A stretch of 64,000 nt of DNA, from contig DFGY01000062.1 in the NCBI GenBank assembly GCA_002372505.1, forward strand, positions 28,322-92,321, in the 5' to 3' direction. Positions within the stretch are counted from its first letter, which is position 1, and each line of letters starts with the position of its first letter. A model generated the notes under the pieces. It searched no databases, was not told where the DNA came from, and saw only the letters and a list, made by a program, of their open reading frames with translations. Of this stretch, positions 16,997-44,354 are shown piece after piece. This DNA comes from Firmicutes bacterium UBA3738 (GTDB lineage: Bacteria > Bacillota > Clostridia > Peptostreptococcales > Anaerovoracaceae). Position numbers and translations under genes: made by a program.

Positions 16997-18526
16997 TTAC
17001 CGGTTATTCGTTTTTTCTTTCAGATATTTCCGCACGATTTCTACATCCTCCGGCAATGCAGGGCGATTGTATTTCTGCACCATCTGCCTGATGCAATATG
17101 CCCCTCTTTCGCGCCCGAATTCGATGGTATATTCACGCCCATCTATGTCCCAGTGAAAAATTGCTATTTTGTCATTACGCACTTTGCTCCTATAGTTAAA
17201 CACACAATTGTGTTGTCTTTCTCCTTCATCATATAGTGCAGGCGTACTGTCGATCATTTTGAAGTCGTCAGGCAGCAGCTCTTTCAGTTCAAGAAACTTG
17301 CTGTCTTCTGCCAGCAAGGGCTGTTTGAACTCTGCTTCATTTATCTGAGCATAGCGAACCATCTGATCCCTTGCAGCGTCATGGGCATTTTCCAGAGCAC
17401 GTGGCCTGGTTTTTCGGAGAGAGATGAGTTCTCCCGTATCTATACAAAGCTCTCCGTAGTCTCTTGCAATGAATTCGAACCTTTTGAATATTCTTTTCGG
17501 TATATCTTCAGCTGTCTCGAACAATCTGTTAGCATAATATCGTACTAAAAAATCTGACAAAGCCCACTTGATCATTACAGGGTCTGAAAAGTTCTTCACA
17601 CCGGCGCCAATCCATTCCATGAATTCATCCTTCGGAATCGATAGAAGCAATCCCCAGTCAGCCGGCTTTATGAATTCAGCAACCTTCGTCACATACCAGG
17701 AATAATTCATGTTTTTTCTGTTGTAGTTGATCATTAAAGGCTGTTCTGATTCGCCTCTGATCAGTTCATCCGGCGTTCTGTATTTACATGCGTCGTGAAT
17801 CTTGATGGGGTTTGCGAAGTAGTGGTCACTTCTTATTGTCCTTGCAACATCTTTAAGTATCTTCTTTTCTTCGCCCAACATCATAAAGATGTCGGCCAGC
17901 ACATTTCTGAAACTTTCATTGCGCATGAGCAACCTGTTGAGAAATGAAGTGAATCTGAAATAGTAAAAAGTGTTATTGAATCCACTCCAGTACAGTTCAC
18001 CATCCTCTCTTAAATGCATGTTCAATACTGGTCTGTACGTTGTCTTGACTTTCATGGCCGGCTTACCATATGTGCTGCGAAATTCAATCCCTGTTATGGG
18101 ATGGAATACAAGCGTTATGTAATCCATATAGCCGGAAGGCATCTTTTTCTTTTTCAGAGCTACAAGCATATCAAGTTCTAACATCTTCTTTTTTTCCACT
18201 GACTCATCGTAATAATTCATGTATATGTTGTGTGGTGCTCCGGCTTTTTTGAAAAAATCACTTTCCAGACTTGTCCAATAGTCATAATACCAGTCCCATC
18301 TTTCAGTATTGTAAAAGTAGTCGACATTGCTTTTGCGACCGCCGAATACATATTTCGAATCATGATGGTCATAGTATCTTGACACTATTTCTTTTACTGT
18401 ATTTATATCCATTTCAGCGCTCACTTTCTCTTTGATCTTTACTATCGGATTCTTTCTTGTTCTTACTGTCTGTCTCTTTGTCCTGATCCAATATGTCCAG
18501 GATGTCGCCACATGGGGTTTCTCCAT
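16997..18526 (-). CDS. PcfJ-like domain protein (509 aa)
   Basis: The C-terminal DEGERQHNCVFNYRSKVRNDKIAIFHWDIDGREYTIEF resembles the PcfJ-family C-terminal motif (EG..xHCV..Y...G...I). This is a recognition-level call. Starts 3 nt after the upstream stop. Confidence 0.55.
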   Translation of the reverse strand: MEKPHVATSWTYWIRTKRQTVRTRKNPIVKIKEKVSAEMDINTVKEIVSRYYDHHDSKYVFGGRKSNVDYFYNTERWDWYYDYWTSLESDFFKKAGAPHNIYMNYYDESVEKKKMLELDMLVALKKKKMPSGYMDYITLVFHPITGIEFRSTYGKPAMKVKTTYRPVLNMHLREDGELYWSGFNNTFYYFRFTSFLNRLLMRNESFRNVLADIFMMLGEEKKILKDVARTIRSDHYFANPIKIHDACKYRTPDELIRGESEQPLMINYNRKNMNYSWYVTKVAEFIKPADWGLLLSIPKDEFMEWIGAGVKNFSDPVMIKWALSDFLVRYYANRLFETAEDIPKRIFKRFEFIARDYGELCIDTGELISLRKTRPRALENAHDAARDQMVRYAQINEAEFKQPLLAEDSKFLELKELLPDDFKMIDSTPALYDEGERQHNCVFNYRSKVRNDKIAIFHWDIDGREYTIEFGRERGAYCIRQMVQKYNRPALPEDVEIVRKYLKEKTNNR

Positions 18527-18529: not shown

Positions 18530-19456
18530 TCAATTCAAAGCCACCTTTGCGATGCTGTTTACGATGTGCTCGCTGCGTTCTCTTATAAGCCGCGCCGCGG
18601 TACTGAAAAATGTTTTCCAGTCTTCATCATTATCGGGATATGGTATTTCCAGCGAATGCCCCGGGAAGAACGGTATTGGCAGATAGTTTTCATCGACCAT
18701 AGACAGCAGCATATTCTTCTCAACAAATGTTCTCCAGCATCCGAAGTGATCCAGCCATGCTTTGGCATACGATATCTCTCTTTTGCCTTCATCCCGGCTC
18801 TTTATACAAAACAGTTTCCTGAGCGGATCGGTATCCGGTATCGTCTGATCCCTATTCGGATCGTGACTGGTGTGGATATCATAATACTCTTTGATTGCCA
18901 TGAGGCAAAGATCCGTCTGGTCATAAGCCGCAAGATAATCAGGTGCTCCGGTGTAGCCTGTCCTTGCGCAGTTGAATCCTCTGGGCACCGGCATGAAGTT
19001 GCCGATAGTATGGCTTACTGCGAGGAAATCCATCGCACCGGCTTTTTCAAGTCTGGCACGACACTCTTTCGAGAATTCTCCCTCTGCTGACAGCAGCTGA
19101 TAAGTGCCTGTCTTTTTTCCGCAAGACAGCCCGAGAAATTTCTTTAACGGTGACCATGCAGATGTAAGCGTATCGCTGAATTCCGCGAGATTCTCAGCTT
19201 CTCTTCTTACCGGGAATTCATCGAGGATCTGCTTTGAATAATCAGAGCTGTCACAGTCAAACAGCCTTATCTCACTGGATGCGCAGATATTGCCCATGAG
19301 CCAGTACAGACATATCTTCTGCAGCGGATCCAGTGCATCCCAGTCACTGCCGATGCTATCCTTTATATCACAGACATGATCGAGCCATCTCATCATCTCG
19401 CCACCTATCTCGTTTTTCACATCGTATTGTGCATTAATTTTTTTGTTGTTTTTCAT
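18530..19456 (-). CDS. Hypothetical protein (308 aa)
   Basis: ATG at 19456 with an AAAGGAAAA RBS. Tightly packed within the operon. No recognisable motif. Confidence 0.65.
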   Translation of the reverse strand: MKNNKKINAQYDVKNEIGGEMMRWLDHVCDIKDSIGSDWDALDPLQKICLYWLMGNICASSEIRLFDCDSSDYSKQILDEFPVRREAENLAEFSDTLTSAWSPLKKFLGLSCGKKTGTYQLLSAEGEFSKECRARLEKAGAMDFLAVSHTIGNFMPVPRGFNCARTGYTGAPDYLAAYDQTDLCLMAIKEYYDIHTSHDPNRDQTIPDTDPLRKLFCIKSRDEGKREISYAKAWLDHFGCWRTFVEKNMLLSMVDENYLPIPFFPGHSLEIPYPDNDEDWKTFFSTAARLIRERSEHIVNSIAKVALN

Positions 19457-19502
19457 TGTTTTTTCCTTTCTATTCTATCTCTTACGAACCACAATAACTT
19501 GT

Positions 19503-20048
19503 CTATCTGGAACCCCTTATTTCTTGCATTACCCCTATCGACTCTTTTGCCTTGTCAAAATCCAGGGTTCCACAGATATATCCGACTATGGAGTAGCACA
19601 GATCGCCCATCATATGCGGGCAAAAGTTTAGAATGTACCACATCGTATCAGTGAAATATTTCTCTAGCATTTCATATCTGATAAGCGTTCCGCTGTATAC
19701 GTCTTTGTTTTCTTCATCGTATATAATCGTGCGGTCATACAGCGTATCCATCTGATATGTTACATTGCCATTTATATAATTCATGATGCGCGCCGCTCTC
19801 TCATCGCCATGCCCGTCTTCAGCCTCTATTGGCTGGCAATAGTATGTCTGGCAATACATGTGTTCATCTTTGAACCTGATGCTTGTCTCGACCACTTTGC
19901 TGATCACATTGTCATCTTCAGTGGCAAAATACAGAGTATCAATATCCTCCATATCTTTCAGACAGCCGTCTTCATTCAGCGGTCTGTACCCTATATTTGC
20001 TTTTTTGAAGTAATCTTTTACAAGCGACAGTGCTTCTTTCTTGTTCAT
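19503..20048 (-). CDS. Hypothetical protein (181 aa)
   Basis: The ATG at 20048 directly abuts the stop of the small upstream ORF (TAAATG). No confident family assignment. Confidence 0.65.
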   Translation of the reverse strand: MNKKEALSLVKDYFKKANIGYRPLNEDGCLKDMEDIDTLYFATEDDNVISKVVETSIRFKDEHMYCQTYYCQPIEAEDGHGDERAARIMNYINGNVTYQMDTLYDRTIIYDEENKDVYSGTLIRYEMLEKYFTDTMWYILNFCPHMMGDLCYSIVGYICGTLDFDKAKESIGVMQEIRGSR

Positions 20049-20192
20049 TTACATCTCCCCTCTCATCACTTTGTTCAGATTATTTATGGCGATTTTCCTT
20101 ATTTCTTTTTTTATTACTTTTTCGTATTCTGCGTTGCCTTTCTGTGTTTTGACATGATTAAGTTCGAATAACAAGCTTTTCATTTTGCTCAT
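20049..20192 (-). CDS. Small basic ORF (47 aa; MSKMKSLLFELNHVKTQKGNAEYEKVIKKEIRKIAINNLNKVMRGEM), not in the supplied ORF track
   Basis: Translated by hand. Strong RBS AAAGGAGG 7 nt before the ATG at 20192. The stop TAA is immediately followed by the ATG of the next gene. Confidence 0.5.
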   Translation of the reverse strand: MSKMKSLLFELNHVKTQKGNAEYEKVIKKEIRKIAINNLNKVMRGEM

Positions 20193-20239
20193 ATGAGATA
20201 CCTCCTTTCGTAATTTCTGATTCAATTATATCTATGCGA

Positions 20240-20257
20240 TGCTCAAAAAATTGAGCA
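20240..20257. promoter_or_regulatory. Operator palindrome site 2 (TGCTCAAAAAATTGAGCA), 10 nt upstream of a TATAAT facing the minus-strand four-gene operon
   Basis: Minus strand reads TGCTCAATTTTTTGAGC-ATCGCATAGA-TATAAT, then the RBS and the ATG at 20192. Confidence 0.7.
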
Positions 20258-20361
20258 TTGATATCTTTTTTGGGAGATTATTATTAAATTTTTTGAAACG
20301 GCGGCATCAAAGCACATATTTCGCATATCGCTTAATAAAAGTGCAGGAACTGCTGGATTTA

Positions 20362-20370
20362 TGCTATAAT
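20362..20370 (+). promoter_or_regulatory. Extended -10 (TGCTATAAT) for the HipA-like gene
   Basis: TGnTATAAT lies 30 nt upstream of the ATG at 20400 and is followed by RBS AAAGGAGGAG. Confidence 0.5.
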
Positions 20371-20399
20371 ACTGAGAACATCGGAAAGGAGGAGCGCGA

Positions 20400-21419
20400 A
20401 TGAAACTGCACATAATGTCCGCAGATAATGAAGTGGCGGTGTTGACTGATTCAGGTCTCACCATTATTGATCCTGCGCTCTGTCCTATGTTCATCAAGAG
20501 AACAAACGATGTCCACACATGGATCAGTAGCAGAGCTATAGAGGGCGTCCGTTCGAATTCCCGCATACTGAAAAAAGTCCATGGGCTGTCTCGTTTCGCT
20601 TCTGACTACGATACTGCTATGGCTTACAATGCGGCCTGCGTCACGGATAACTTCTGGGTCCGCACAGGATCCGAGACATGGGACGATATCCGGTTCACTA
20701 ATGATATCTACTTTCGCATGGCTCTGGACAGTGACAACGAAATGATAGGCAAAGCTCCTTCAAGAACGCCGGAGCTTACCAATATCGGCACACAGGAAAA
20801 AGGCTGGCGCCTCATCGGTGATGAATGGTGGCTATACAAAAGAGAGCCGGACTTTCAGCAAAAGGCAGAAATCCTGACATACCGCATTGGCCGGTTGCTG
20901 GGTTTTGATATGGCGCACTACGAGATGGATGGCGACTATATCCGCACTCTCGATTTCACAAAAGGCGAATATAATCTCCAGCATGCTGACGCTGTAATGC
21001 ACGGCAAGCTGGAAGATGATTATGAATATAATTACGATAAGCTGATGGCAATGGGTCCGGCACTTGCCTCACAGTATCTGGACATCATTTACCTTGACTC
21101 ACTGATGAACAACGTTGATCGCCATCTGAAGAATTACGGCTTTCTCACTTCGCAGGAGGATGGCAGCATTATCAAAATGGCGCCAAACTACGATAACAAC
21201 ATGAGTCTGTACGGATACCCCGGATGTCTTGGCAGTGACCGGTGCGGCGGATTGATGAAGTTCTTTACAGATTTCCTGACAAACAAAGGCATCAAATACG
21301 AGACACCCGAACTGAAAAAAAATGATCTGCTGGATCTTTGCAAAGGATTTGACAGGCCGGAAGAACTGGTCCGCTACATAATGGCCGGACAGGAAGTCGT
21401 GCAGCAATGTTGTGTGTAA
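20400..21419 (+). CDS. HipA-family serine/threonine kinase-like protein (short, 339 aa)
   Basis: GTQEKGW (HipA P-loop-like GxQxK motif), catalytic-loop NNVDRHLKNYGFL (compare HipA DxHxKN), and APNYDNN. Confidence 0.7.
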   Translation: MKLHIMSADNEVAVLTDSGLTIIDPALCPMFIKRTNDVHTWISSRAIEGVRSNSRILKKVHGLSRFASDYDTAMAYNAACVTDNFWVRTGSETWDDIRFTNDIYFRMALDSDNEMIGKAPSRTPELTNIGTQEKGWRLIGDEWWLYKREPDFQQKAEILTYRIGRLLGFDMAHYEMDGDYIRTLDFTKGEYNLQHADAVMHGKLEDDYEYNYDKLMAMGPALASQYLDIIYLDSLMNNVDRHLKNYGFLTSQEDGSIIKMAPNYDNNMSLYGYPGCLGSDRCGGLMKFFTDFLTNKGIKYETPELKKNDLLDLCKGFDRPEELVRYIMAGQEVVQQCCV

Positions 21420-21540
21420 AATCAAAACACACTCCAACTGTTGCAGGTAATTGTACTCTTTTCACATTATCCATTTTAGGTTAAGAGTGCTTTGCCAAAT
21501 AAGTTTGATCTCCGACATATAACGGAACGAAAGGGATAAT

Positions 21541-22776
21541 ATGAAAATGAAAGATAAATGGTTCGAACGAGGTGGATTTCTTTATGATATAACGAAGGAG
21601 TATGGGCGGTTAAGGAAAAAGGACATCAAGGACATCATAGATAATCCAAATAATAATAAATCTGATCTTGATTTTTATGAAATCCTTTTTCTTAATAACC
21701 TTGATAATGTCGCCAAAAATTTTATTACTCGTAGAATCCCCAAAAATGTTAACTCTGTGTCTATTTTTCATACGTGCTTTAATTGGAAGAGTCAAAATAA
21801 TAATGAAAAGAAATTACCTATTATTGATGAATTAAAATCATTTGCAAACACAAACTTTATATATAAACTTCCGGGTGATTGGGATACGGATAGATTGTTG
21901 AGATATTCTTTTCGATGGGATGCTGCACCTAATTATTGGCCACATGTTGAACAACTGCGTTATTCAATTTGTGAAATTAAGAAAAACTATCCACAATATA
22001 ATTATAATAATTGGAATGCAGTTGCAACAAAATCAAGCAGCGCAGAAAAATGGATTCTAAAGGGCAATAATAAAGACACTAGTATGGAAATAGAACTCTC
22101 CTCAGATATATGTACCGGCAAATCTATTGTGGCCGATATTAGTATTATCCCTAGCATGACAAAAAATATTGGACCGAAAAAATTAAAGGAATACATATCT
22201 GATAATGTCAACAAGTTTTATTATCTTGAACCTTTTCTTAATGTGATGTACACATGTGGAAATATGACAACAATACCAAATATAAAAGGATCTAATAAAG
22301 GCGGAGGCAATGATCGCTGGGACGCAAAACTACAAAATATTAAAGACTTTATTGTGGAAGGCAAAGGGAAAAAAATAGGAATAACTTTATACGAAATCTA
22401 CAATAAGAAAAACGAACCCTGGAAACAATACGTCATCGAGCATTATATGAACGACTATGTAAACAAAGACTGGAATGTAAAAAATATTCAATCACCAGAG
22501 GTTGTGTTACAGAAAGATGAAGAACCATCAGCTCGCGGAAACGAAGAAACCTTTTATATAAACGCTGCTAAACTCATCATCCAGCGTGGTTACCGTATAT
22601 ACTATCAATACGAACGAGATAACGAGGGAAAAATCAAATATAAAGATGACAAGCCAGTCAGAAACAAAGACCTCTTCAATGAGGATCTATCTTTCATATG
22701 CAAAGCCAAAGATGAATTGCAAGAAGCATTTAAAGCAGTCGGGATTCCGGAAAACAAACTAGATATAATAGAATAA
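21541..22776 (+). CDS. Hypothetical protein (411 aa), markedly AT-rich gene
   Basis: The ORF has an AAAGGGA RBS. The first 60 nt hold 20/60 G+C by hand count. N/K/I/Y-rich with no recognisable motif. Confidence 0.65.
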   Translation: MKMKDKWFERGGFLYDITKEYGRLRKKDIKDIIDNPNNNKSDLDFYEILFLNNLDNVAKNFITRRIPKNVNSVSIFHTCFNWKSQNNNEKKLPIIDELKSFANTNFIYKLPGDWDTDRLLRYSFRWDAAPNYWPHVEQLRYSICEIKKNYPQYNYNNWNAVATKSSSAEKWILKGNNKDTSMEIELSSDICTGKSIVADISIIPSMTKNIGPKKLKEYISDNVNKFYYLEPFLNVMYTCGNMTTIPNIKGSNKGGGNDRWDAKLQNIKDFIVEGKGKKIGITLYEIYNKKNEPWKQYVIEHYMNDYVNKDWNVKNIQSPEVVLQKDEEPSARGNEETFYINAAKLIIQRGYRIYYQYERDNEGKIKYKDDKPVRNKDLFNEDLSFICKAKDELQEAFKAVGIPENKLDIIE

Positions 22777-22777
22777 C

Positions 22778-22806
22778 CGGTGGTCACGTAGCTTGCATGA
22801 CCACCG
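22778..22806. terminator. Bidirectional terminator hairpin between convergent genes
   Basis: CGGTGGTCA-11 nt-TGACCACCG, a perfect 9-bp stem, between the stop at 22776 (+) and the stop at 22839 (-). Confidence 0.6.
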
Positions 22807-22838
22807 ATTAGAGAGCACAGAGTATCCTTTGAAAACTC

Positions 22839-23993
22839 TTACTTTTTCCCCTCTTTCATAACCCCATACATCTCAGCCATCTGTTTGATCCTGTTTTGTA
22901 TTTCTTCCCTGACTTCCTCAGGTTCCAGGACTTCCATCTTTTCTGCATGCTGAAGAGCGAAGTTTATCATTCCGTAAGGAGAACACAACACTTGGACCAG
23001 ATCGTAGTTCTTGTCGTTCTTATCAGGTCCGAGATATTCGTACTTGTCACCAAAAGCGGCGAACAAAAAATTGTATTCAGGCTCGATGGATTTCCCGTAC
23101 TGATCTTTTTTACTTAGTACTCTTAGCGTCATGTACTGCGGCTTATCGTAAGACATACCAAGATGTGTAAGTGTATATTCCGAATCCCAATGCTGAGGCA
23201 TATTTTCGACTTCTCTCTTAGGTATCCGTTTCGATTCTGTTTTGCTTACATCCGACATAAGATCCACGCGCAGTATATATGTGTTCTTGTATTTTTCGTT
23301 TGCTGCCAGCAGATAGTATTTCCCATCATTGGCCACAATATAGTACGGACTGGCAATCCTTTCATAATTACCCGCAGGAGCCAGTTTTCTTTCACGTGTG
23401 TACCCGTTGAATCTATATTTGATCTGGACATTTTCATCTATAGCCTGTTGTATCGTCCTGAGGTTGTCTCTCAGCTGCTGTATGTCATATTTCGGGGTCT
23501 CATATATCTTGCAGACATTACTGGCGCTTGCTTTGTAGTGTTTAGAAGCGAATTTTTCTTCAAGTGTCTTTATCAGTTTATCCGCTCTTTCCGGTTCCAT
23601 GGTACGAGAGAAGTTTATGGCTTCTACCATACTGCTGATATCTTCATGAGAAAACTCGGGATTATAATACAGATTACTCACTTGAAGATAATCTTTTTCA
23701 AATTCTTCTGTATCACCAGCTTCCCCGTACACAGCTTTGTAATCATCAAAAACGATTCGCCAGTCATCGTCCGGAAGAGGTATATCATTCTCATCCAGAT
23801 TCATTGCATCTGCAAGATTAACAAGAAATGTATGCACCGTAGTCCGGTTGCCCAGGTTAATATTCTTTCCTTCGAAATACTCTCTTATATCCTTTAGATT
23901 GATTTTGTGATCCGGATCCGGATCCGTATTTTTCTTAAGATACTCCAGAAACATAATAGTGCGTCTGGTCTGATTTATCTTTTCCCCTTTCAT
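22839..23993 (-). CDS. HTH + WYL-domain transcriptional regulator (BrxR/CapW/PafBC-like architecture)
   Basis: N-terminal winged-helix-like region (RRTIMFLEYLKKNT...LKDIREYF). Central WYL-like core (ASPYYIVANDGKYYLLAANEKYKNTYILRVDLMSDV). Strong RBS GGGAGGA. Divergent from the AAA+ gene and shares operator site 3. Confidence 0.6.
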   Translation of the reverse strand: MKGEKINQTRRTIMFLEYLKKNTDPDPDHKINLKDIREYFEGKNINLGNRTTVHTFLVNLADAMNLDENDIPLPDDDWRIVFDDYKAVYGEAGDTEEFEKDYLQVSNLYYNPEFSHEDISSMVEAINFSRTMEPERADKLIKTLEEKFASKHYKASASNVCKIYETPKYDIQQLRDNLRTIQQAIDENVQIKYRFNGYTRERKLAPAGNYERIASPYYIVANDGKYYLLAANEKYKNTYILRVDLMSDVSKTESKRIPKREVENMPQHWDSEYTLTHLGMSYDKPQYMTLRVLSKKDQYGKSIEPEYNFLFAAFGDKYEYLGPDKNDKNYDLVQVLCSPYGMINFALQHAEKMEVLEPEEVREEIQNRIKQMAEMYGVMKEGKK

Positions 23994-24054
23994 AATGATC
24001 CTCCCTGAAACAAAGGCTTGTGGATTTTTCGCCTCTTTATATTATATCATGTAC

Positions 24055-24071
24055 GCTCAAAAAATTGAGCA
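24055..24071. promoter_or_regulatory. Operator palindrome site 3 (GCTCAAAAAATTGAGCA) in the divergent WYL / AAA+ promoter region
   Basis: Plus direction reads TTGAGC-ATTGTATTTG-TATCAT. Minus direction reads TTGAGC-GTACATGA-TATAAT. Confidence 0.7.
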
Positions 24072-24127
24072 TTGTATTTGTATCATTATAGCATAATCTA
24101 CATTTCAAACAATCAGCGGAGGGAAAA

Positions 24128-26179
24128 ATGATATTAAAAAAAATTGAATTTGAAATAGCCAGCAAGGAAATATCACAAGCTGTATCCGGCAGATTCGATA
24201 ACGACTATTCAAAGCGTGTAGAATACATCCGTTTGCTGGGAAGTCTGAATGAGCAGCTGATGAAATCATTCAAAGGATCCGGTAATACTTTTTTTGCGGC
24301 GCTGACTAAAGGAGTGGATAACAGGATGTCTGCCATTTTAGCTTATGACATCAAAACCCACACTGAACAGGAATGCATATCGATCATTTCAAAAGTTATA
24401 GGCAAAGCCAAGATACTTTCCTGCCGTGAAATCACGATCACGGACTTTTCAGCGAAGCTGGGAGAGGTAGAAGGTATTCCAACAAACTCCATTATTCACA
24501 CACTTGGTCTGGACATATATGCCACTGCTTCCCTTTTTCATAGTCCTGCGTATGAAATATCTGAAGACATCAAGGACAAGAAAAGATACCCTAAAGAAAA
24601 GTGTCTTATGGAAGCGAAAAAAATCATGGCATCAAAAAGTTTTTTGGATGAAATAAGCCGGATCTATTCAAGGAAAAACACAAGGAAATACTACGGCCAC
24701 CCTGTGCACTATTACATTTCTGCCGGCTCCTGCGGAGCTGCAAAAGATATCACTGATATTCTAATTACAGCACTTCTGCACAACAACAGACTTCCCGGGG
24801 GCCGAGTCACAACAGTCAGCAACATTACTGATAAAGCATCGAAAGAAGTCAACTTCAAAAACATATTTCCGTCATGCCGTGGCGGCACCGTGATCGTAGA
24901 TCTTTCAGCGGAATACGAGATAAACAACTACGCAACAGGATATTTATCAATTGCAAAGGAACTGGGTAATCAGCTCGGCAAATACGGAAATGATACCCTG
25001 TTCATTTTCGTCGACATATCCGGCAGCTCAGTGATACGCGGCGAGACTCTGACAGGGATCCTGGCAAACGGAGATATAATTGAGATCGAAGAGGGCTACG
25101 GCGACTACCGGCAGGCAGTTTCATATCTCCGTGATCTGGCGCAAAGAAGCGAATTCAGTCAGTACGCCGACGATGATCTGCAAACTTATCTTCCCGAAAA
25201 AGAATCATATAATGTTTCTGATATTTTTTTCGCTTACGAGAGATGGTACGGCAAGGGGCTCAAAACTCATATTTATCCTGCTTATGCCGAAATAGATACA
25301 TATCATATCGAGGCCGAAAAACCGAAGAGCAGACCCTATGACAAACTGATGGAAATGATCGGGCTCGATGATATAAAAAAGACCATTGACCGGGTCATAG
25401 ATTCATCAAAGATCCAGACTATACGGCATGACATGGGATTATCGTCCGTCGTTACCCTTCCCCATATGATGTTCTACGGCAATCCCGGCTCTGCGAAAAC
25501 CAGCGTTGCCAGGCTGATGGCTCAGATTCTCAAAGAAGAAGGGGTTCTAAAAAGCGGCCATCTCGTCGAATGTTCCCGAAGCGACTTGGTCGGAAAGTAT
25601 GTGGGATGGACCGCTCAAATAGTAGAAGACAAATTCAAATCTGCCAAAGGTGGTATACTGTTCATAGACGAGGCTTATTCCCTTGCCGATGGCAGCAATA
25701 CTTACGGACAGGAAGCAATCAATATGATAGTTCAGCTGATGGAGAACTACAGAAACGATGTTCTGGTCGTCTTTGCAGGATATCCGGAGAAAATGAAAGA
25801 CTTCATCCGCACCAACGAAGGTCTGAAGAGCAGGATCGCCTTTCATCTGCATTTTAAAGATTATGACCCTGAGGAGATGGTCAGCATACTCAAGCTGATG
25901 GCCAAAGAAAAGGAATTGAATCTCACTGCAGGAGCACTAAATAAATGCAGATCCGTTTTCGAAGAAGTCTGCTGTCTCTCTGATTTTGGCAATGGAAGAT
26001 ACGCCCGGAATCTCCTAGAACAGGCTCAGATGAATCAAGCGGAAAGGCTCTTTCGGATCGGCGAACCAAAAGAGATTACAAAAGAAGATATCAAGTTGAT
26101 AAAAGCATGCGACATAGAATCCGTGAAGCAGATGGGCAATGAACCTGAAAAAATCAAAAAAATTGGATTCAGTATATAA
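24128..26179 (+). CDS. AAA+ ATPase (SpoVK/CbbX-type C-terminal module) with a long N-terminal region holding a degenerate second NTPase-like module
   Basis: Walker A GNPGSAKTS and Walker B GGILFIDEAYSL in the C-terminal module. The N-terminal YYISAGSCGAAKD...GGTVIVDL looks like a decayed P-loop/Walker B pair. Confidence 0.8.
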   Translation: MILKKIEFEIASKEISQAVSGRFDNDYSKRVEYIRLLGSLNEQLMKSFKGSGNTFFAALTKGVDNRMSAILAYDIKTHTEQECISIISKVIGKAKILSCREITITDFSAKLGEVEGIPTNSIIHTLGLDIYATASLFHSPAYEISEDIKDKKRYPKEKCLMEAKKIMASKSFLDEISRIYSRKNTRKYYGHPVHYYISAGSCGAAKDITDILITALLHNNRLPGGRVTTVSNITDKASKEVNFKNIFPSCRGGTVIVDLSAEYEINNYATGYLSIAKELGNQLGKYGNDTLFIFVDISGSSVIRGETLTGILANGDIIEIEEGYGDYRQAVSYLRDLAQRSEFSQYADDDLQTYLPEKESYNVSDIFFAYERWYGKGLKTHIYPAYAEIDTYHIEAEKPKSRPYDKLMEMIGLDDIKKTIDRVIDSSKIQTIRHDMGLSSVVTLPHMMFYGNPGSAKTSVARLMAQILKEEGVLKSGHLVECSRSDLVGKYVGWTAQIVEDKFKSAKGGILFIDEAYSLADGSNTYGQEAINMIVQLMENYRNDVLVVFAGYPEKMKDFIRTNEGLKSRIAFHLHFKDYDPEEMVSILKLMAKEKELNLTAGALNKCRSVFEEVCCLSDFGNGRYARNLLEQAQMNQAERLFRIGEPKEITKEDIKLIKACDIESVKQMGNEPEKIKKIGFSI

Positions 26180-26181
26180 AA

Positions 26182-26199
26182 TGCTCAATTTTTTGGGCA
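26182..26199. promoter_or_regulatory. Operator palindrome site 4 (TGCTCAATTTTTTGGGCA, one arm mismatch), 10 nt upstream of a TATAAT
   Basis: TTGGGC-ATACGGTCGC-TATAAT, then RBS AAAGGAG and the ATG at 26265. Confidence 0.6.
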
Positions 26200-26264
26200 T
26201 ACGGTCGCTATAATTAACATTGAAAGTTGATTTCATAGCATTCTTAAATAAAGGAGCATTCGAA

Positions 26265-26642
26265 ATGAGTAACAAAAGAAAATACGAACCTATCGAGACT
26301 TATCGCTACAATAATGTTTGTAAGAATTGCAAAAACATCTATTATTATTTTAAAGACGAAGAATATGCTATAATTAAATGCGAGCATAATGTGGCGACCT
26401 GCCTGCTCAACGGAGCCATGCAATTTGTTTATCGGAAACCCGGAGAAGAACTAATCAAATCTGAAGTGCCCCTGCATATTTGTAAGAATTGCAAAAACAC
26501 ATATTATGATTTAGAAGACGACGGATATGTTCTTAAATGCAGGCATAATATGGCAGGCTGCCTGTCCAACGATGCCACGCATTTTGTTTACCGGAAACCC
26601 GGAGAGGAAATCGCCAAATCCGATGTGATTCTATCCGAATAA
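26265..26642 (+). CDS. Small Cys-rich protein with two tandem zinc-ribbon-like repeats (125 aa)
   Basis: Internal duplication: CKNCKNIYYYFKDEEYAIIKCEHNVATCL..FVYRKPGEE versus CKNCKNTYYDLEDDGYVLKCRHNMAGCL..FVYRKPGEE. The ATG at 26265 with RBS is preferred over the TTG at 26220. Confidence 0.7.
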   Translation: MSNKRKYEPIETYRYNNVCKNCKNIYYYFKDEEYAIIKCEHNVATCLLNGAMQFVYRKPGEELIKSEVPLHICKNCKNTYYDLEDDGYVLKCRHNMAGCLSNDATHFVYRKPGEEIAKSDVILSE

Positions 26643-26681
26643 TTCGTATATTGTTATAAATGATAAGGACAGGGAATTGAA

Positions 26682-26960
26682 ATGTTTGATAATAAAGTAA
26701 TCAAGAAAATAATAGCTTCAGGATGTGATGAGTCTTTTATAGAGGATGTGCATTCTTTATTCGATATTGTTCGATGTGATGACTGCCATACCCAAAAAGA
26801 AAAAGAACTCATCGTTTACAATTGTAAAAGCACTGTGGAAAGAATCAATGCTGTGGCAGAAGAGAAAGGCTTTGAAAGGTTTTATACAAAAGATGAACAC
26901 ATCGATTTTGAGAAAGATTTAAGAGATTATGTATTGGGCGTAGTCAAGCAAATGATGTAA
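26682..26960 (+). CDS. Hypothetical small protein (92 aa)
   Basis: ORF in the same operon; contains CDDCH and further Cys residues. No family recognised. Confidence 0.55.
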   Translation: MFDNKVIKKIIASGCDESFIEDVHSLFDIVRCDDCHTQKEKELIVYNCKSTVERINAVAEEKGFERFYTKDEHIDFEKDLRDYVLGVVKQMM

Positions 26961-26981: not shown

Positions 26982-27614
26982 ATGGAGAAAAAGATTCTGG
27001 CTTTGACAAAAGACGGAAAGTTAGCATTTTGCTCAGCAAAACCAGATGGTAGATGCAAAGACAGGTGCGATCACGCAGACCACCAAAAGTTTTATCAGAC
27101 AGCTCAGGATTTTATAACGCAATTAGGCATGAACGGGATCAAGCTTGAGAAAGATGATGAAATAAAGAGAGCTGTGTATTTAAAACGGAATATTGAAAAT
27201 CTGCACTTTCCAACAGATTATCATAAGAAATTGAAAGAAGATATCAGTTGGATAAAATATATCATTACTAACAATCCGGCACAGGAAAAGAACTCGAGAA
27301 TAATAAAAAACTATTATGAGTTCATTTACAAGTCTGATGCACTATTTGCAGTAATAGGCTATAGCGCATCAGGTATTAAAGATAAGCAAGAACAATATAA
27401 GCAGATAGATAGCAAGCGAAGAGATTTTCATAATGCCACACTTGGAGCTTTTGCTTCTATGGTTGCAGATTGCAAGCAAAAAATCGGTATAGATATTTAT
27501 GACAAAGATTATAAAGAGATATTAAAAGCACAGAGTGAATACGGAGGGGAACGAACCAGGGTCGCCAACTATCTGTATGATGTCATCAAATATTATAATG
27601 ATGTTGACGATTAG
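26982..27614 (+). CDS. Hypothetical protein (210 aa) with an N-terminal Cys/His cluster
   Basis: CSAKPDGRCKDRCDHADH cluster near the N-terminus. RBS AGGAGA upstream. Confidence 0.6.
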   Translation: MEKKILALTKDGKLAFCSAKPDGRCKDRCDHADHQKFYQTAQDFITQLGMNGIKLEKDDEIKRAVYLKRNIENLHFPTDYHKKLKEDISWIKYIITNNPAQEKNSRIIKNYYEFIYKSDALFAVIGYSASGIKDKQEQYKQIDSKRRDFHNATLGAFASMVADCKQKIGIDIYDKDYKEILKAQSEYGGERTRVANYLYDVIKYYNDVDD

Positions 27615-27647
27615 CTTTATTCAATCTTTTTTTAATCCATCTTGAAT

Positions 27648-27785
27648 GAAAAACAGGGGTAATTAGGGGGTATATTATGGATTTCCGCCAAAATGAAAAA
27701 TCCTCGGAACGCTTGAATTTCCAAGGATTTTTTTATGGTCGGAGAGACAGGATTTGAACCTGCGGCCACCTGACCCCCAGTCAGG
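27648..27785 (-). repeat. att-like copy C: the 3' 50 nt of tRNA-Pro (27736-27785, identical) plus a copy of its terminator/flank
   Basis: 27736-27785 is identical to 44395-44444. 27648-27735 is near-identical to 44307-44394. Confidence 0.9.
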
Positions 27786-27821
27786 GTGAGACCGTCGTGA
27801 TTTCAATGCTTTCAGCGATTG

Positions 27822-27856
27822 TTTCCACCACGATTTCCACCACAGTTTCCACCACT
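27822..27856. repeat. Three direct repeats TTTCCACCAC (period 12-13), arm-type-site-like
   Basis: Copies at 27822-27831, 27834-27843 and 27847-27856, 36 nt right of core copy C. Confidence 0.8.
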
Positions 27857-28014
27857 AAATTTTTCCAAATGTATAAATATGCGCGATTCCGGATAGTGCA
27901 AAGCGATCTCTACATTAGCGATTTTAATAATATGCAGTAAACATCAGCTTACCAATTACACTAAGCATTCCATTTCTATTTCAAATACATATGAGTCGCT
28001 CATCAATATCTATA

Positions 28015-29640
28015 TTAAAATCTAAAGGGCTCTTTTTTACGACCAGCCGCAAAATCGATTTCTTCGAAAAGAGCGCGACATTTTTCATATTGCGATAGCT
28101 TCAGTTGTTCTATAACATCATCGACATATTTTTCACCATGTTCGAGTTTTATCAATCCCTTAATATACTCTGCTGCCTCATGATAGATTTTTCTGCTTTT
28201 TTCTCCAGTAAGCGAAGAAAAGAAACTATTTGTAAAAAACTTTTTCAATTCAGGCTCATACTTCTCTGCAAGAAAATCTACATTTCTTATTATTTCAAAT
28301 CGACTCCCTTTCTCATTAAGCAAATTGAACAGCTTTTCTTTTTCGTCAGTGAATCTATACAACGTTACCAGATGGCCAAGATTTTTCGTGAGCTTTTCTA
28401 TTCTTTTTTCACATTCTGATAACCAGCCTGCATCCTTTAAATGTTGCAGCGGAACTGTATCATTATTGTTCAGATAATCATATAAATAGTACTCTTTCAA
28501 GATTTCTTTATCACCACATTTTTCATACAACTTATTTAACAAGAATGGAATGTACTGTTTGTTGTATAGTGGTTTTTTATTTATTTCTTTCGATATGGCA
28601 CAATAAAGCCCTTTGACATCAGGTGCACTCTCTATGCAAAAGCAGATATACTCTTTGTACTTTGCATTTTTGATCATAGTACTTACCATGTCATCCATTT
28701 CGGGCTTTTCAATAATGCAAATTGCAATAAGCACATTTGATTTTGGGCACGTATTTCGAATCCCCATTGATTTCAAACGAGCGAACCGATCATTCAAACC
28801 GGTTACATATTGTTTCTTCTGTTCTTTGGATAAATGCTTTGATAAATGCTCTGCGATCCATCGATAATCATCATACACCGCCAGATCATCTTTCATGAAA
28901 AGTTCATTCAAATCGCTTCTATATTCTTTATTTCTCCATAGAGATGATATTTTTCTCTTTTCCACATCGCTTAGCATAGGCTGAGAATAGTCTTTCCATT
29001 CACTGTCATTATCTCTCTGTAGAAGGATCAAGCGAGAATTCAGTTTGTCTAATAGAACACTGGCTCCATTTTTATTGCCGATAAATTCTGAATACCTATG
29101 CTTCAGATATTTGTTGAAAGTCTCTTTTTTGTCTTTCATCAATTCAACACGAAGAATCATCCTTAATTCTTCCGGTGTCATATTGTCTAGAAAATCATCC
29201 AGTAGCTCATCATAATACAAAATGCCAAATCCTTCATTCAACAATTTTGTCAGAGAACTATTACAAATCCTGCTCTTATCCAGTGAATATTCCATTTCTC
29301 TTTCTTCTTCATAATAGTCATGGTTGGTCTCCCTGCAATCATCATAGTCTTCATAATAGTCAGCCTTTTCCGGAAAGGCGGCCATCCATAATGCTGCCAT
29401 ATGCTTGCACATATTTCCGCTTTCCGCATACGGACAATCACAACTGGATTTAAGTGGTTCATTTATTTTAATTGTCACTGAATAGGGCTTGTCTTCGCTT
29501 CCCTCAACCAGTCCTTTGTATTCATAAGTATCTGTTTGCTCTATTTCCAGCACAAAATCGCGAGAATAATAATCATATCCTCTGGCTACGATTCTTTCAT
29601 CAAAGTAACTCATATAGCTATTGACTTTTTCTTTGGTCAT
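28015..29640 (-). CDS. SWIM zinc-finger domain protein (541 aa)
   Basis: N-terminal CDCPYAESGNMCKHMAALW (CxCxnCxH SWIM signature). The rest is helical and K/E/Y-rich. RBS GGAGAG. Confidence 0.75.
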   Translation of the reverse strand: MTKEKVNSYMSYFDERIVARGYDYYSRDFVLEIEQTDTYEYKGLVEGSEDKPYSVTIKINEPLKSSCDCPYAESGNMCKHMAALWMAAFPEKADYYEDYDDCRETNHDYYEEEREMEYSLDKSRICNSSLTKLLNEGFGILYYDELLDDFLDNMTPEELRMILRVELMKDKKETFNKYLKHRYSEFIGNKNGASVLLDKLNSRLILLQRDNDSEWKDYSQPMLSDVEKRKISSLWRNKEYRSDLNELFMKDDLAVYDDYRWIAEHLSKHLSKEQKKQYVTGLNDRFARLKSMGIRNTCPKSNVLIAICIIEKPEMDDMVSTMIKNAKYKEYICFCIESAPDVKGLYCAISKEINKKPLYNKQYIPFLLNKLYEKCGDKEILKEYYLYDYLNNNDTVPLQHLKDAGWLSECEKRIEKLTKNLGHLVTLYRFTDEKEKLFNLLNEKGSRFEIIRNVDFLAEKYEPELKKFFTNSFFSSLTGEKSRKIYHEAAEYIKGLIKLEHGEKYVDDVIEQLKLSQYEKCRALFEEIDFAAGRKKEPFRF

Positions 29641-29664
29641 TTTTTCTCTCCAGAAGATTTGTTT

Positions 29665-30972
29665 TCAATCTTTCAAGCATCCTACAGGAATCACTTTTAC
29701 TCCATTTTCTGTTGTATAAGCCATTGGAGCATTCCCACATATTATGATAAGGAGCGATGGCTCTCGATATTCTATCCCCGGATGCGCTTCATTCAACCTG
29801 GCCTTTTCATTATGTTCACGTATAACCTTAGTAAATTTTATCAAGTTCTCTTCCGCTGCCGGCACAGCATTTGATCCTGTTTTTATTTCAATCAAGGCAT
29901 AACGCCCATCGTTTAACTGCAGTACTGCATCTGCCTCAAGCCCATTGCTGTCGCTATAATGCATCAGTCTGGCATCGTGTGCTTGTGCAAAAACAAGAAG
30001 GTCCCTAAGCACCATATTTTCGAAGGCATGACCAAACAAATCAAGATCATTATTAAAATAGTCCGGAGATACACCCAACGAAGCCAGCGCGATAGACGGA
30101 TCAATGAATATATGCTTCTTTGCAGCTCTAATCGATGTCTTTGAACGTATTTGTGGTGTCCATGCATCGATATCCTTTAATACGAATAATTTTTCAAGAG
30201 CTGTAATGTATGACGAAATTGTGACATCCGACATGTCATGATTTGACCGAACATCCGAATATATATTCTTTCTCTTCGCAAGTGTTGCCATATTTCTGGC
30301 ATAAGACCAAATAATCGTCCTAGCCCATTCCTGATTTCGTTTCACATCATCGATCGTACTAATATCCTTTAGATATATTTGTTTAAAATAATCTCTTGCA
30401 ATTTCAAGCTTTGACGCATCCGAAGAGAGCGCCAGGCATCTTGGCCAGCCACCCCTGCAGACCGCAAAAAACAACTCCTCTAACTTTGTATTACACTTCT
30501 GCCCATCAATAATAAAGTCTTCATCGTCAAACAGTTTCTTCAACGAAATCGAGCCATTCGATTCTCCTGTCTCATACAAGGTCATTGGATACATCATAAT
30601 ACTTGTAATCCTTCCGGTGCCTGTATGCGGTGTATCCACATCTTTGCTGGTTGAACCTGTAAGATAGTATTCCCCAACAGACTCCGGCTCATCATCACAA
30701 GCTTTTCTTATCGCGCCCCATATTTTAGGAGCATCTTGCCATTCATCAAAAAGAATTGGCTTTTCATTATTCAAAAATAGTTTGGGCGAGGTGTTTGCAA
30801 CAGCCAGATAGCCTTCTCTCCTTTCTTCGTCCTGAAACTCTATAATTGTCTTGCAGCGTTCCTGTGAAGTACGCGTCTTGCCGCATCCTTTTGGCCCAAT
30901 TATATTTATCGCATTAAACGCTTCTTTTTTCTTATCGATCTCTGAATCTACGATTCTTCGTATATAGTCCAT
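29665..30972 (-). CDS. AAA_14-type ATPase with a C-terminal DUF4143 (PD-(D/E)xK-like) domain
   Basis: Walker A GPKGCGKTR, Walker B ILFDEWQD, C-terminal DGRYALIEIKTGSN (D..ExK-like). Confidence 0.8.
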   Translation of the reverse strand: MDYIRRIVDSEIDKKKEAFNAINIIGPKGCGKTRTSQERCKTIIEFQDEERREGYLAVANTSPKLFLNNEKPILFDEWQDAPKIWGAIRKACDDEPESVGEYYLTGSTSKDVDTPHTGTGRITSIMMYPMTLYETGESNGSISLKKLFDDEDFIIDGQKCNTKLEELFFAVCRGGWPRCLALSSDASKLEIARDYFKQIYLKDISTIDDVKRNQEWARTIIWSYARNMATLAKRKNIYSDVRSNHDMSDVTISSYITALEKLFVLKDIDAWTPQIRSKTSIRAAKKHIFIDPSIALASLGVSPDYFNNDLDLFGHAFENMVLRDLLVFAQAHDARLMHYSDSNGLEADAVLQLNDGRYALIEIKTGSNAVPAAEENLIKFTKVIREHNEKARLNEAHPGIEYREPSLLIIICGNAPMAYTTENGVKVIPVGCLKD

Positions 30973-31106: not shown

Positions 31107-31150
31107 TTGCAAGTTGTCAAAGTAGGTTTTCCAAGGATTATTGATGGCCT

Positions 31151-36938: not shown

Positions 36939-37051
36939 CTCGTTTCCCTCCATTACTTGATTATATAGCATTTATTTACCCTGCACAATTACTATGATTT
37001 AGAAACAAGCAAAAACCCTTGGAAAAAGTACATTTTTCAACGGTTTTATTC

Positions 37052-44299: not shown

Positions 44300-44354
44300 G
44301 GTTAGGGAAAAACAGGGGTAATTAGGGGGTATATTATTGATTTCCGTCAAAAAG

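What the first reader, a model, noticed from the sequence alone, without database searches (positions are those of the whole stretch)
20400..22776. HipA-like kinase without HipB, followed by a strongly AT-rich 411-aa unknown
The 339-aa protein keeps the HipA signature motifs (GTQEKGW, VDRHLKNYGF, APNYD) but is shorter than classical HipA. Neither upstream nor downstream is there any HTH antitoxin gene. The upstream region is a divergent promoter. The next gene, 121 nt downstream on the same strand, is a compositionally deviant N/K/I-rich protein with no motif I recognise. The second gene could be an unconventional antitoxin or effector, or the kinase could act as a sensor in the island.
Basis: partly seen in the sequence, partly recalled or inferred. 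Interest (0 to 1): 0.6.

Follow-up and report, generated by a model that had tools for sequence, protein, structure and literature searches.

The report
Orphan kinase beside hypervariable DUF6994-like gene
An intact HipA/CtkA-type protein kinase with no antitoxin partner sits next to a gene that is not an orphan: it is a divergent DUF6994-like protein, its middle is swapped between otherwise near-identical copies of the island, and it travels with a WYL regulator and an AAA+ ATPase rather than with kinases.

Summary
Both ORFs are real: the kinase at 20400-21419 and the 411-aa gene at 21541-22776. The gene is AT-rich (GC 32.8% against 47.6% for the kinase).

**Kinase.** It is an intact HipA_C-type kinase under purifying selection. 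Its family profile matches H. pylori CtkA better than HipA or HipT. It belongs to a patchy Clostridia family. In 80 species-level loci that family has no conserved neighbour: no HipB, and no DUF6994, WYL or AAA+ gene.

**411-aa protein.** It is a distant DUF6994-like protein. A paralogue (308 aa) lies just upstream on the other strand.

**Hypervariability.** Seven metagenomic contigs, of which five show flanking genes, carry the same module with flanks 90-99% identical. The centre of this gene is replaced in them. Six alleles exist, 25-63% identical in the middle for all but one related pair. Flank dS is about 0.1, so this is recombinational replacement.

**Who the 411-aa gene travels with.** Relatives in independent loci sit with homologous WYL regulators and a homologous SpoVK-type AAA+ ATPase, and never with a kinase.

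**Verdict.** The two genes are probably co-transcribed neighbours, not a HipBA-like pair. The second gene is most likely the variable component of an undescribed WYL-linked conflict module. Function is untested.

The parts
18530..19456 (-). 308-aa DUF6994-like paralogue, in the leftward operon with the 58-, 181- and PcfJ-like genes
   Evidence: Weak Pfam DUF6994 hit, E 2.3e-4. The A2 profile, built without this protein, hits it at E 2.4e-20 to 5.6e-18. Shares the HTIGNFMP and W..FVEKNML motifs.
19503..20225 (-). 181-aa and 58-aa genes heading the leftward operon
   Evidence: ORFs. They are 88-95% identical in the sister contig L002. The 181-aa protein weakly resembles a 208-aa protein in the independent WYL/DUF6994/AAA locus L120, E 4.6e-4.
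20240..20257 (.). Palindromic operator-like site TGCTCAA-N4-TTGAGCA in the divergent region between the leftward operon and the kinase
   Evidence: Four sites in the window (16978, 20240, 24054, 26182) against 0.44 expected. A 20-nt stretch is identical at 20241 and 24055.
20362..20370 (+). Extended -10-like TGCTATAAT about 30 nt before the kinase start, followed by the GGAAAGGAGGAG ribosome-binding site
   Evidence: Read directly from the sequence. Consensus match only.
20400..21419 (+). 339-aa HipA_C/CtkA-type Ser/Thr kinase. Gly-rich loop NIGTQEKGW (about 128-136), K147, catalytic D240-R-H-x-K-N245, Mg-binding D265-N266
   Evidence: Pfam HipA_C. PADLOC PDC-M03A, E 1.2e-10. Family invariants retained. 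Family profile against PDB: CtkA E 2e-10, HipT(Lp) E 0.016. dN/dS 0.15-0.22.
21420..21540 (+). 121-nt spacer without a terminator-like hairpin, 97-99% identical between island copies
21541..22776 (+). 411-aa divergent DUF6994-like protein. Retains the family invariants G240, N241, R349 and the near-invariants D189, P244, D258, I346
   Evidence: Profile search: 69 relatives of 250-320 aa. Five of 39 hit Pfam DUF6994, best E 1.3e-6. Canonical DUF6994 proteins are hit back by the A2 profile. AF2 model with 71 sequences: pLDDT 77.4, pTM 0.83.
21641..22565 (+). Hypervariable, AT-rich core of the 411-aa gene (GC 31.6%), replaced between island copies
   Evidence: Nucleotide identity falls from 0.9-1.0 to 0.25-0.45, with allele-specific breakpoints. 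Mid-region aa identity is 25-63% for all allele pairs but one, a pair at 86%.
22774..22810 (.). 15-bp-stem hairpin between the convergent 411-aa and WYL genes; likely terminator
22839..23993 (-). 384-aa WYL/WCX regulator
   Evidence: Pfam WYL and WCX. PADLOC WYL, E 1.4e-21. Homologous to the WYL proteins beside DUF6994-like genes in L120 (E 6.6e-35) and L114 (E 1.9e-23).
24054..24071 (.). Second copy of the operator-like palindrome, in the WYL/AAA divergent region
24128..26179 (+). 683-aa ATPase: about 400-aa N-terminal region plus a SpoVK/CbbX/EccA-type AAA+ module
   Evidence: Pfam AAA and AAA_lid_6. NCBIfam spore_V_K E 4e-75, below cut-off. Full-length homologue in L120, E 1.1e-163.

Best explanation
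Two different things sit side by side.

(1) The 339-aa gene encodes an intact, probably active Ser/Thr kinase of the HipA_C/CtkA type. It belongs to a large, patchily distributed Clostridia family. Members of that family are normally solitary and often ride on mobile elements, next to TrbL conjugation genes, integrases or Fic genes. It is not one half of a HipBA-type pair.

(2) The 411-aa gene is a divergent DUF6994-like protein carrying insertions. It is the second such paralogue in an 8-kb module that also holds a WYL regulator, a SpoVK-type AAA+ ATPase and small Zn-ribbon proteins. Homologous WYL, DUF6994-like and AAA+ genes recur together elsewhere without any kinase.

Within this island lineage the 411-aa gene is a recombination hot spot. 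Its 5' and 3' ends are conserved. Its centre has been replaced by at least six alleles that are distant from one another and AT-rich.

Inferred, not shown: the protein is the target-contacting (specificity or effector) part of a WYL-controlled conflict or defence-like module. The kinase is a lineage-specific add-on that is co-transcribed with it and may modulate it.
For: **Kinase is intact and constrained.**
- Motifs and family invariants are retained.
- dN/dS is 0.15-0.22 between island copies.
- The family profile matches CtkA (3akj) at E 2e-10, against 0.016 for HipT(Lp).

**Kinase is solitary.**
- 217 relatives were found in species-representative genomes, and 80 loci were fetched.
- No A1/A2 (DUF6994-like) hit lies within 6 kb in any of the 80, and no WYL, AAA683 or Metallophos homologue.
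- The largest neighbour clusters hold 9 members each among the neighbours of the 80 loci: TrbL proteins and tyrosine integrases.
- Homologues at 47-56% identity sit beside DUF364, SpoIIE or HtpG-PolA genes.

**The 411-aa protein is DUF6994-like.**

**Hypervariability.**
- In seven metagenomic contigs, wherever a flanking gene is present, the kinase is 90-96% identical, WYL 85-92% and AAA 97-99%, while the 411-aa gene is 33-50% identical.
- Breakpoints are mosaic.
- There are six alleles.
- Flank dS is about 0.09-0.15, so in-situ divergence cannot explain the centre.
- GC is 31.6% in the centre against 47.6% for the kinase.

**Recurrent partners.**
- L114: a WYL gene overlaps a DUF6994-like gene by 8 nt.
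- L120/L121: a WYL gene, a relative of the 181-aa protein, a DUF6994-like gene and a full-length AAA+ homologue.
- L124: tandem DUF6994-like paralogues plus a Metallophos gene.

**Likely co-transcription.** Same strand, no terminator in the 121-nt gap, and a strong hairpin after the 411-aa gene.
Against: - No expression or functional data exist.
- Every known allele of the 411-aa family proper lies directly downstream of this kinase, so a lineage-specific functional coupling cannot be excluded.
- The WYL association rests on only three independent contexts.
- Other relatives sit beside different genes: L116 next to a 466-aa unknown, L118 next to a 1130-aa protein. Canonical DUF6994 loci showed no WYL or AAA homologue by phmmer.
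- The HNH-like nature of DUF6994 comes from the literature only. Foldseek found no significant PDB or BFVD match for my model.
- "Defence" is inferred from context alone.
Confidence: 0.55

Rival explanations
1. The kinase and the 411-aa gene form a kinase-first, two-gene toxin-antitoxin or abortive-infection module. It would be analogous to hipIN/PDC-M03, hipJS and hipMP, where the partner lies downstream. The 411-aa protein would restrain or sense for the kinase. Its hypervariable centre would recognise phage or mobile-element triggers, and its constant N- and C-terminal ends would contact the conserved kinase.
For: - The genes are on the same strand, 121 nt apart, with no terminator between them and a strong hairpin after the second gene.
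- Every allele with visible flanks follows the kinase.
- The kinase core hits six PADLOC PDC-M03A models, best E 1.2e-10.
- PDC-M03 is HipA plus a HIRAN protein.
- Downstream partners are known for the HipI, HipJ and HipM kinases.
- Constant ends with a variable centre is what a sensor docked on a fixed partner would look like.
Against: - All adjacent cases belong to one island lineage with about 93% nt identity, so they are a single observation.
- 0 of 80 kinase relatives have a DUF6994-like neighbour.
- None of the independent loci of DUF6994-like relatives has a kinase.
- The kinase keeps about 125 residues before its Gly-rich loop, unlike the core-only HipI, HipJ and HipM kinases that need a HipS-like partner.
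- No HipS or HIRAN signal was found in the 411-aa protein.
- The two genes differ by 15 points in GC.
Confidence: 0.25
2. There is no functional link at all. The kinase and the 411-aa gene are unrelated cargo genes stacked by cassette shuffling in a variable slot near a tRNA-Pro integration hotspot. The variability of the 411-aa gene reflects relaxed constraint or repeated replacement of a selfish, dispensable gene, not selection for specificity.
For:
- Flanks differ between sister contigs: PcfJ-like here, Metallophos in L002.
- Composition differs sharply between neighbouring genes.
- Both families are rare and patchy: the kinase in 6 of 401 genomes of the order and the 411-aa family in 1 of 401.
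Against: - All complete alleles keep an intact frame of 412-437 aa, and family invariants are retained.
- Homologous WYL, AAA+ and DUF6994-like genes co-occur in a very distant locus, with AAA+ identity of 33-48%.
- Four copies of one palindrome tie the promoters of the module together.
Confidence: 0.15

Closest known systems
CtkA (JHP0940) of Helicobacter pylori, PDB 3akj: Ser/Thr kinase encoded on the tfs3 ICE
   Same: It is the best solved relative of the kinase family profile: E 2e-10 over the catalytic core, including the DRH..N and APxxD motifs. It is a solitary gene carried by a conjugative element (PMC5536186). Part of the Clostridia family likewise lies beside TrbL genes.
   Different: Only the roughly 140-residue core aligns. 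The phylum is different. There is no evidence here for secretion or any host-directed role. The window copy is not next to conjugation genes, apart from a PcfJ-like gene.
HipA / HipBA type II toxin-antitoxin kinases, and the monocistronic HipH (YjjJ)
   Same: [quoted passage not shown] Like HipH it has no separate antitoxin gene.
   Different: There is no HipB, and no HTH fused as in HipH. Some relatives instead carry an N-terminal DUF6788 or another extension. No Couple_hipA hit was found. The Pfam score barely passes. The same genome has ordinary HTH-plus-kinase pairs and an HTH-fused kinase elsewhere.
hipIN / PADLOC candidate PDC-M03 (short HipA-like kinase plus a downstream HipS-HIRAN protein)
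   Same: Kinase-first order with a downstream partner that carries a nucleic-acid-related domain. PDC-M03A models hit the kinase core.
   Different: The partner here has no HipS or HIRAN signal. The kinase is not core-only. The adjacency is not conserved outside one island.
Pfam DUF6994 (PF22507), predicted HNH / type IV restriction-like beta-beta-alpha-metal fold
   Same: The 411-aa protein and the 308-aa paralogue link to this family through intermediate sequences and reciprocal profile hits. Conserved Asp residues D189 and D258 fit the family description.
   Different: The 411-aa protein itself does not reach the Pfam model. It carries an insertion of about 110 aa after residue 26 and a swapped centre. 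No nuclease-like fold was confirmed here.
WYL-regulated defence operons (BrxR of BREX, CapW of CBASS) and WYL DNA-damage regulators (DriD, PafBC)
   Same: A WYL/WCX regulator sits beside accessory genes, with a repeated palindrome at several promoters.
   Different: No BREX or CBASS gene is present. The regulated genes are not in PADLOC. The regulator's ligand and DNA binding are untested. The comparison with named regulators rests on my own knowledge.

Membership tests
HipA_C kinase superfamily (Pfam PF07804) | Score above the Pfam gathering threshold | tested here: met
   32.3 bits against a cut-off of 30.5, residues 142-270. Narrow pass.
HipA_C kinase superfamily (Pfam PF07804) | Gly-rich loop, catalytic D-x-H-x-x-N and Mg-binding D motifs | tested here: met
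   NIGTQEKGW, D240-R-H-L-K-N245 and D265-N266 are all at invariant columns of the 35-sequence family alignment. They align with the CtkA catalytic loop.
HipBA type II toxin-antitoxin module | Adjacent, co-oriented HipB-type (Cro/C1 HTH) antitoxin gene | tested here: not met
   No HTH_3, HTH_26 or HTH_31 protein lies next to the kinase. No conserved neighbour of any kind appears in 80 relatives.
HipBA type II toxin-antitoxin module | Growth arrest by the kinase, relieved by the partner | not testable with these tools
   Needs expression in a laboratory strain.
HipH (YjjJ) monocistronic kinases | N-terminal HTH domain fused to the kinase | tested here: not met
   No HTH hit in the 339-aa protein. 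A true HTH-fused kinase exists elsewhere in the genome, L015.
hipIN / PDC-M03 | Downstream partner with HipS-like and HIRAN domains | tested here: not met
   The 411-aa protein has no PADLOC or Pfam hit. Only the kinase component, PDC-M03A, matches.
DUF6994 (PF22507) | Match to the Pfam model | tested here: inconclusive
   The 411-aa protein has no direct hit. The 308-aa paralogue scores 21.4 bits against a cut-off of 27. Five of 39 profile-linked relatives hit, best E 1.3e-6. Canonical DUF6994 proteins are hit by the A2 profile at 1e-4 to 5e-8.
DUF6994 (PF22507) | HNH-like beta-beta-alpha fold with two conserved Asp residues | tested here: inconclusive
   D189 and D258 are nearly invariant. 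The confident AF2 model gave no significant Foldseek hit: best PDB E 2.5, and BFVD HNH hits at E 0.75-5.
WYL-controlled accessory module (WYL + DUF6994-like + SpoVK-type AAA+) | Co-occurrence of homologous WYL, DUF6994-like and AAA+ genes in unrelated loci | tested here: met
   L120/L121 carry all three. L114 carries WYL plus DUF6994-like, overlapping by 8 nt. Only two independent loci besides the window.

The most novel reading that the evidence does not exclude
The 8-kb block from about 18.5 to 26.7 kb is an undescribed WYL-controlled conflict (anti-phage or anti-mobile-element) system.

In it, paired DUF6994-like proteins act with a SpoVK-type AAA+ motor. One DUF6994-like subunit is an allele-swapped specificity or effector determinant. 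The population maintains at least six cassettes of it, exchanged by recombination through the conserved 5' and 3' gene ends.

In this lineage a CtkA/HipA-type kinase has been recruited as a co-transcribed plug-in. In sister copies a PPP-type phosphoesterase is present as well. Together they would gate the variable subunit by phosphorylation.
Probability: 0.25. Interest if true: 0.75.

Novelty: new variant of a known kind. Interest (0 to 1): 0.55.

Why it matters
HipA-like kinases are usually read as toxin-antitoxin toxins. This case adds evidence that a large Clostridia branch, nearer to CtkA, is solitary and mobile-element-borne, so annotating these genes as "HipA toxin" is probably misleading.

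The more interesting result concerns the neighbour. An uncharacterised DUF6994-like gene shows cassette-like allelic replacement inside an otherwise near-identical island, and it recurs with WYL regulators and a CbbX/SpoVK-type ATPase. That pattern is typical of specificity determinants in host-parasite conflict systems.

It gives a concrete handle, natural allele swaps in a fixed background, for finding out what DUF6994 proteins do.

Tried and rejected
- **First structure prediction.** AF2 on the 411-aa protein with six sequences failed (pLDDT 37.6). A 71-sequence alignment gave a usable model.
- **PDB sequence search.** A profile of the DUF6994-like family found nothing. The WYL protein found nothing useful.
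- **Viral contigs.** The scan for the 411-aa family found none.
- **Shufflon, DGR or silent-cassette explanations for the variability.** I saw no meaningful inverted or direct repeats around the variable core. There is no second copy in the genome. Alleles differ by indels and by wholesale replacement.
- **The 411-aa gene as a decaying pseudogene.** Rejected: all alleles are intact and the invariants are kept.
- **A conserved partner for the kinase family.** Rejected after clustering the neighbours of 80 loci.
Full report
**1. Observation**

The two ORFs exist as described: 20400-21419 (+, 339 aa) and 21541-22776 (+, 411 aa), 121 nt apart.
- The kinase carries NIGTQEKGW, NNVDRHLKNYGF and MAPNYDNN.
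- It passes Pfam HipA_C narrowly: 32.3 bits against a cut-off of 30.5.
- It hits six PADLOC PDC-M03A models, best E 1.2e-10.
- The 411-aa protein gave no hit in Pfam, PADLOC, NCBIfam or PHROGs.
- The 411-aa gene has 32.8% GC. The kinase has 47.6% and the genome 45.7%. The protein is K, N and I rich.
- No Cro/C1-type HTH gene is adjacent to the kinase.

Surroundings:
- Upstream lies a divergent operon: 58 aa, 181 aa, 308 aa, then a PcfJ-like protein.
- Downstream of the 411-aa gene lies a convergent WYL/WCX regulator at 22839-23993.
- Next comes a divergent 683-aa SpoVK/CbbX-type AAA+ ATPase at 24128-26179.

**2. The kinase**

*It is intact and constrained.*
- A 35-sequence family alignment shows every invariant is kept, including K147, D240, R241, H242, N245, D265 and N266.
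- A Ser or Thr sits inside the Gly-rich loop; it is T131 here.
- Between island copies dN/dS is 0.15-0.22, so the gene is under purifying selection.

*Its nearest solved relative is CtkA.*
- Against solved structures the family profile matches H. pylori CtkA (3akj) at E 2e-10.
- It matches Legionella HipT only at E 0.016.
- CtkA is a Ser/Thr kinase encoded on the tfs3 ICE (PMC5536186).

*The family is large but patchy.*
- At least 438 clusters appear in the protein collection.
- There are 217 relatives in species-representative genomes, mostly Clostridia.
- Only 6 of 401 genomes of the window's order carry it.

*The family has no conserved neighbour.* I fetched 80 loci and clustered the neighbouring genes.
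- The largest neighbour clusters hold 9 members each among the neighbours of the 80 loci. These are TrbL conjugation proteins and tyrosine integrases. Fic proteins follow with 5 members.
- Homologues at 47-56% identity sit beside DUF364, SpoIIE or HtpG-PolA genes.
- Some members carry an N-terminal DUF6788 or another extension.
- None of the 80 loci has a DUF6994-like, WYL, AAA683-like or Metallophos homologue within 6 kb.

*Comparison with named Hip families.*
- The published Hip phylogeny (PMC8262856) describes monocistronic HipH and several kinase-first operons: hipIN, hipJS and hipMP.
- PDC-M03 corresponds to HipA plus a HIRAN protein.
- This kinase fits none of these. It has no fused HTH and no HipS or HIRAN partner.
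- It also keeps about 125 residues ahead of its Gly-rich loop, unlike the core-only kinases of that group.

*Other HipA_C loci in the same genome.*
- The genome has seven HipA_C loci in all.
- Three are canonical.
- Two are divergent kinases with overlapping upstream HTH genes.
- One is an HTH-fused, HipH-like kinase.
- Ordinary arrangements therefore coexist with this orphan.

**3. The 411-aa gene is not an orphan**

- Only five close homologues exist, at 35-50% identity.
- A profile of them, searched against 1.8 billion representative proteins, finds 69 proteins of about 250-320 aa.
- These share the motifs ADIxTS, YxTIGNxxP, D...KL..IK, W..FI..NYLQDFV and IIxRGYRI.
- Five of 39 of them reach Pfam DUF6994, best E 1.3e-6.
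- Canonical DUF6994 proteins are hit back by my profile.
- The same profile was built without the window's 308-aa protein (18530-19456, minus strand). It hits that protein at E 2.4e-20. The island therefore holds two paralogues, one on each side of the kinase.
- The 411-aa protein looks like a DUF6994-like protein with an insertion of about 110 aa after residue 26. This is my inference from the alignments and the profile match at residues 17-410.
- Pfam's authors predict an HNH / type IV restriction-like beta-beta-alpha-metal core for DUF6994. They report that it lacks the catalytic His and has two invariant Asp residues (PMC11701544).
- D189 and D258 are nearly invariant in my alignments.
- With 71 sequences AF2 gives a confident single-globule model, pLDDT 77.4 and pTM 0.83.
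- Foldseek finds nothing significant for that model in PDB or BFVD. The nuclease-like assignment remains from the literature only.

**4. Hypervariability**

*The evidence.*
- Seven metagenomic contigs carry the same island: L001, L002, L003, L105, L106, L107 and the P0005 contig.
- They come from Logan, ENA and JGI data. Five of them show flanking genes.
- Where a flanking gene is present, identity to the window is as follows: kinase 90-96% aa, WYL 85-92%, AAA+ 97-99%, the 308-aa protein 94%.
- Across 18545-26682 the nucleotide identity is about 93-94%.
- The 411-aa protein, in contrast, is only 33-50% identical.
- A sliding comparison shows identity of 0.9-1.0 up to about 21640. It falls to 0.25-0.45, the random level, through about 22570, then recovers.
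- Breakpoints differ between alleles. For example, L001 shares 21557-21860 with the window, but L002 does not.

*The alleles.*
- There are six alleles.
- The first roughly 26 residues and the last roughly 70 are conserved.
- The middle is 25-63% identical for all allele pairs but one. That pair is 86% identical.
- L002 and L105 carry near-identical alleles (98% identical in the middle) in independent datasets, which argues against assembly artefacts.
- All complete alleles are intact.

*What this implies.*
- Flank dS is only 0.09-0.15.
- The centre therefore cannot have diverged in place. It has been replaced by recombination, presumably anchored in the conserved ends.
- The low GC of the centre fits import from elsewhere.
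- I found no inverted repeats, no silent copies, and no second copy in the genome.

**5. Who the 411-aa gene travels with**

*Independent loci of the wider DUF6994-like family.*
- L114 is from a different family of the same class. There a 499-aa WYL/WCX protein overlaps a 264-aa DUF6994-like gene by 8 nt.
- L120/L121 hold a 547-aa WYL protein and a 208-aa protein weakly like the window's 181-aa protein.
- The same locus also holds a 258-aa DUF6994-like gene, a 251-aa gene, and a 948-aa AAA+ ATPase.
- That ATPase is homologous to the window's ATPase over its full length, at 33-48% identity and E 1.1e-163.
- The WYL proteins of L120 and L114 are homologous to the window's, at E 6.6e-35 and 1.9e-23.
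- L124 has two DUF6994-like paralogues in tandem after a Metallophos gene.
- In sister contig L002, a PPP-type Metallophos gene follows the 308-aa orthologue where the window has the PcfJ-like gene.
- L118 also has a Metallophos gene nearby.
- None of these loci has a HipA-like kinase.

*Links within the window.*
- Four copies of the palindrome TGCTCAA-N4-TTGAGCA are present, at 16978, 20240, 24054 and 26182. Only 0.44 are expected by chance.
- They sit at promoters of the leftward operon, the AAA+ gene and the Zn-ribbon gene.
- 20 nt are identical at two of these sites.

*Earlier notes from this scan.*
- These are AI notes and unchecked. They describe a "WYL + DUF6994 + PPP phosphoesterase (+ CbbX-type AAA+)" module in other genomes.
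- My loci were found independently of those notes and agree with them.

**6. Interpretation**

*Shown.*
- The kinase is intact, constrained and solitary by family.
- The 411-aa gene is DUF6994-like, paralogous to the 308-aa gene, and recombinationally hypervariable.
- Homologous WYL, DUF6994-like and AAA+ genes recur together without kinases.

*Inferred.*
- The 411-aa protein is the variable, target-contacting part of a WYL-controlled conflict module.
- The kinase is a lineage-specific, probably co-transcribed add-on. The basis is that there is no terminator in the gap and a strong hairpin at 22774-22810.

*Alternatives.*
- A kinase-first TA or Abi pair remains possible, at about 0.25, because every allele follows the kinase. 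All those cases, however, belong to one island lineage.
- Pure coincidence of stacked cargo gets about 0.15.

*Context.*
- The island lies in a low-GC accessory stretch near a tRNA-Pro with repeated attachment-like segments.
- It sits beside SWIM (PDC-S62 hit), DUF4143-ATPase and zeta-toxin-like genes.
- That context resembles a defence island, but no function has been tested.

**7. Limits**

- The WYL association rests on few independent loci.
- The comparison with BrxR, CapW and DriD is from my own knowledge.

Noticed in passing
window 27549-27963, 31128-31194, 35969-36087, 37034-37102, 44150-44471: A repeated segment of up to about 300 bp occurs five times. The last copy overlaps the only tRNA gene, tRNA-Pro(GGG) at 44395-44471 on the minus strand. 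The same segment bounds the shared block in sister contigs L002 and L105.
   Followed up: partly
G000 contigs C6, C96, C88, C75:15209-15706, C48, C21 (loci L009-L015): The 2.0-Mb genome has seven HipA_C loci. Three are canonical. Two are divergent kinases with overlapping upstream HTH genes (L013, L014); L013 lies only about 13 kb left of the window. One is a 467-aa HTH-fused, HipH-like kinase next to thymidine kinase (L015).
   Followed up: partly
loci L035, L040, L046, L069, L074, L081, L086 and others: A subfamily of the kinase, about 461 aa with an N-terminal DUF6788-like extension, sits inside conjugation gene clusters. It lies between a TrbL_5 protein and a small membrane protein. This parallels ICE-borne CtkA of H. 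pylori.
   Followed up: partly
L002:436-1140 (-), compared with window 16997-18526: In the sister island a PPP-type Metallophos phosphoesterase follows the 308-aa orthologue, where the window has a PcfJ-like gene. The own genome has no homologue. Metallophos genes also lie near DUF6994-like genes in L118 and L124.
   Followed up: partly
window 26314-26468 and 26476-26627: The 140-aa Cys-rich protein downstream of the AAA+ gene is an internal tandem duplication: the two halves cross-match at 78-81% nt in sister contigs. Its promoter carries a copy of the operator-like palindrome at 26182-26199.
   Followed up: no
window 28015-30972 (-) and 36188-36772 (-): A SWIM zinc-finger protein that hits PADLOC candidate PDC-S62 (E 7e-10) is paired with an AAA_14/DUF4143 ATPase. 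A zeta-toxin-like P-loop protein lies further right. Both are defence-island-like cargo.
   Followed up: no
L116:4-2411: One DUF6994-like relative (P0127) lies downstream of PARG-like, HAD_SAK_2 and topoisomerase-IV-A-like fragment genes. It is followed by an RlaP nucleotidyltransferase and a second weak DUF6994-like paralogue of 288 aa.
   Followed up: no
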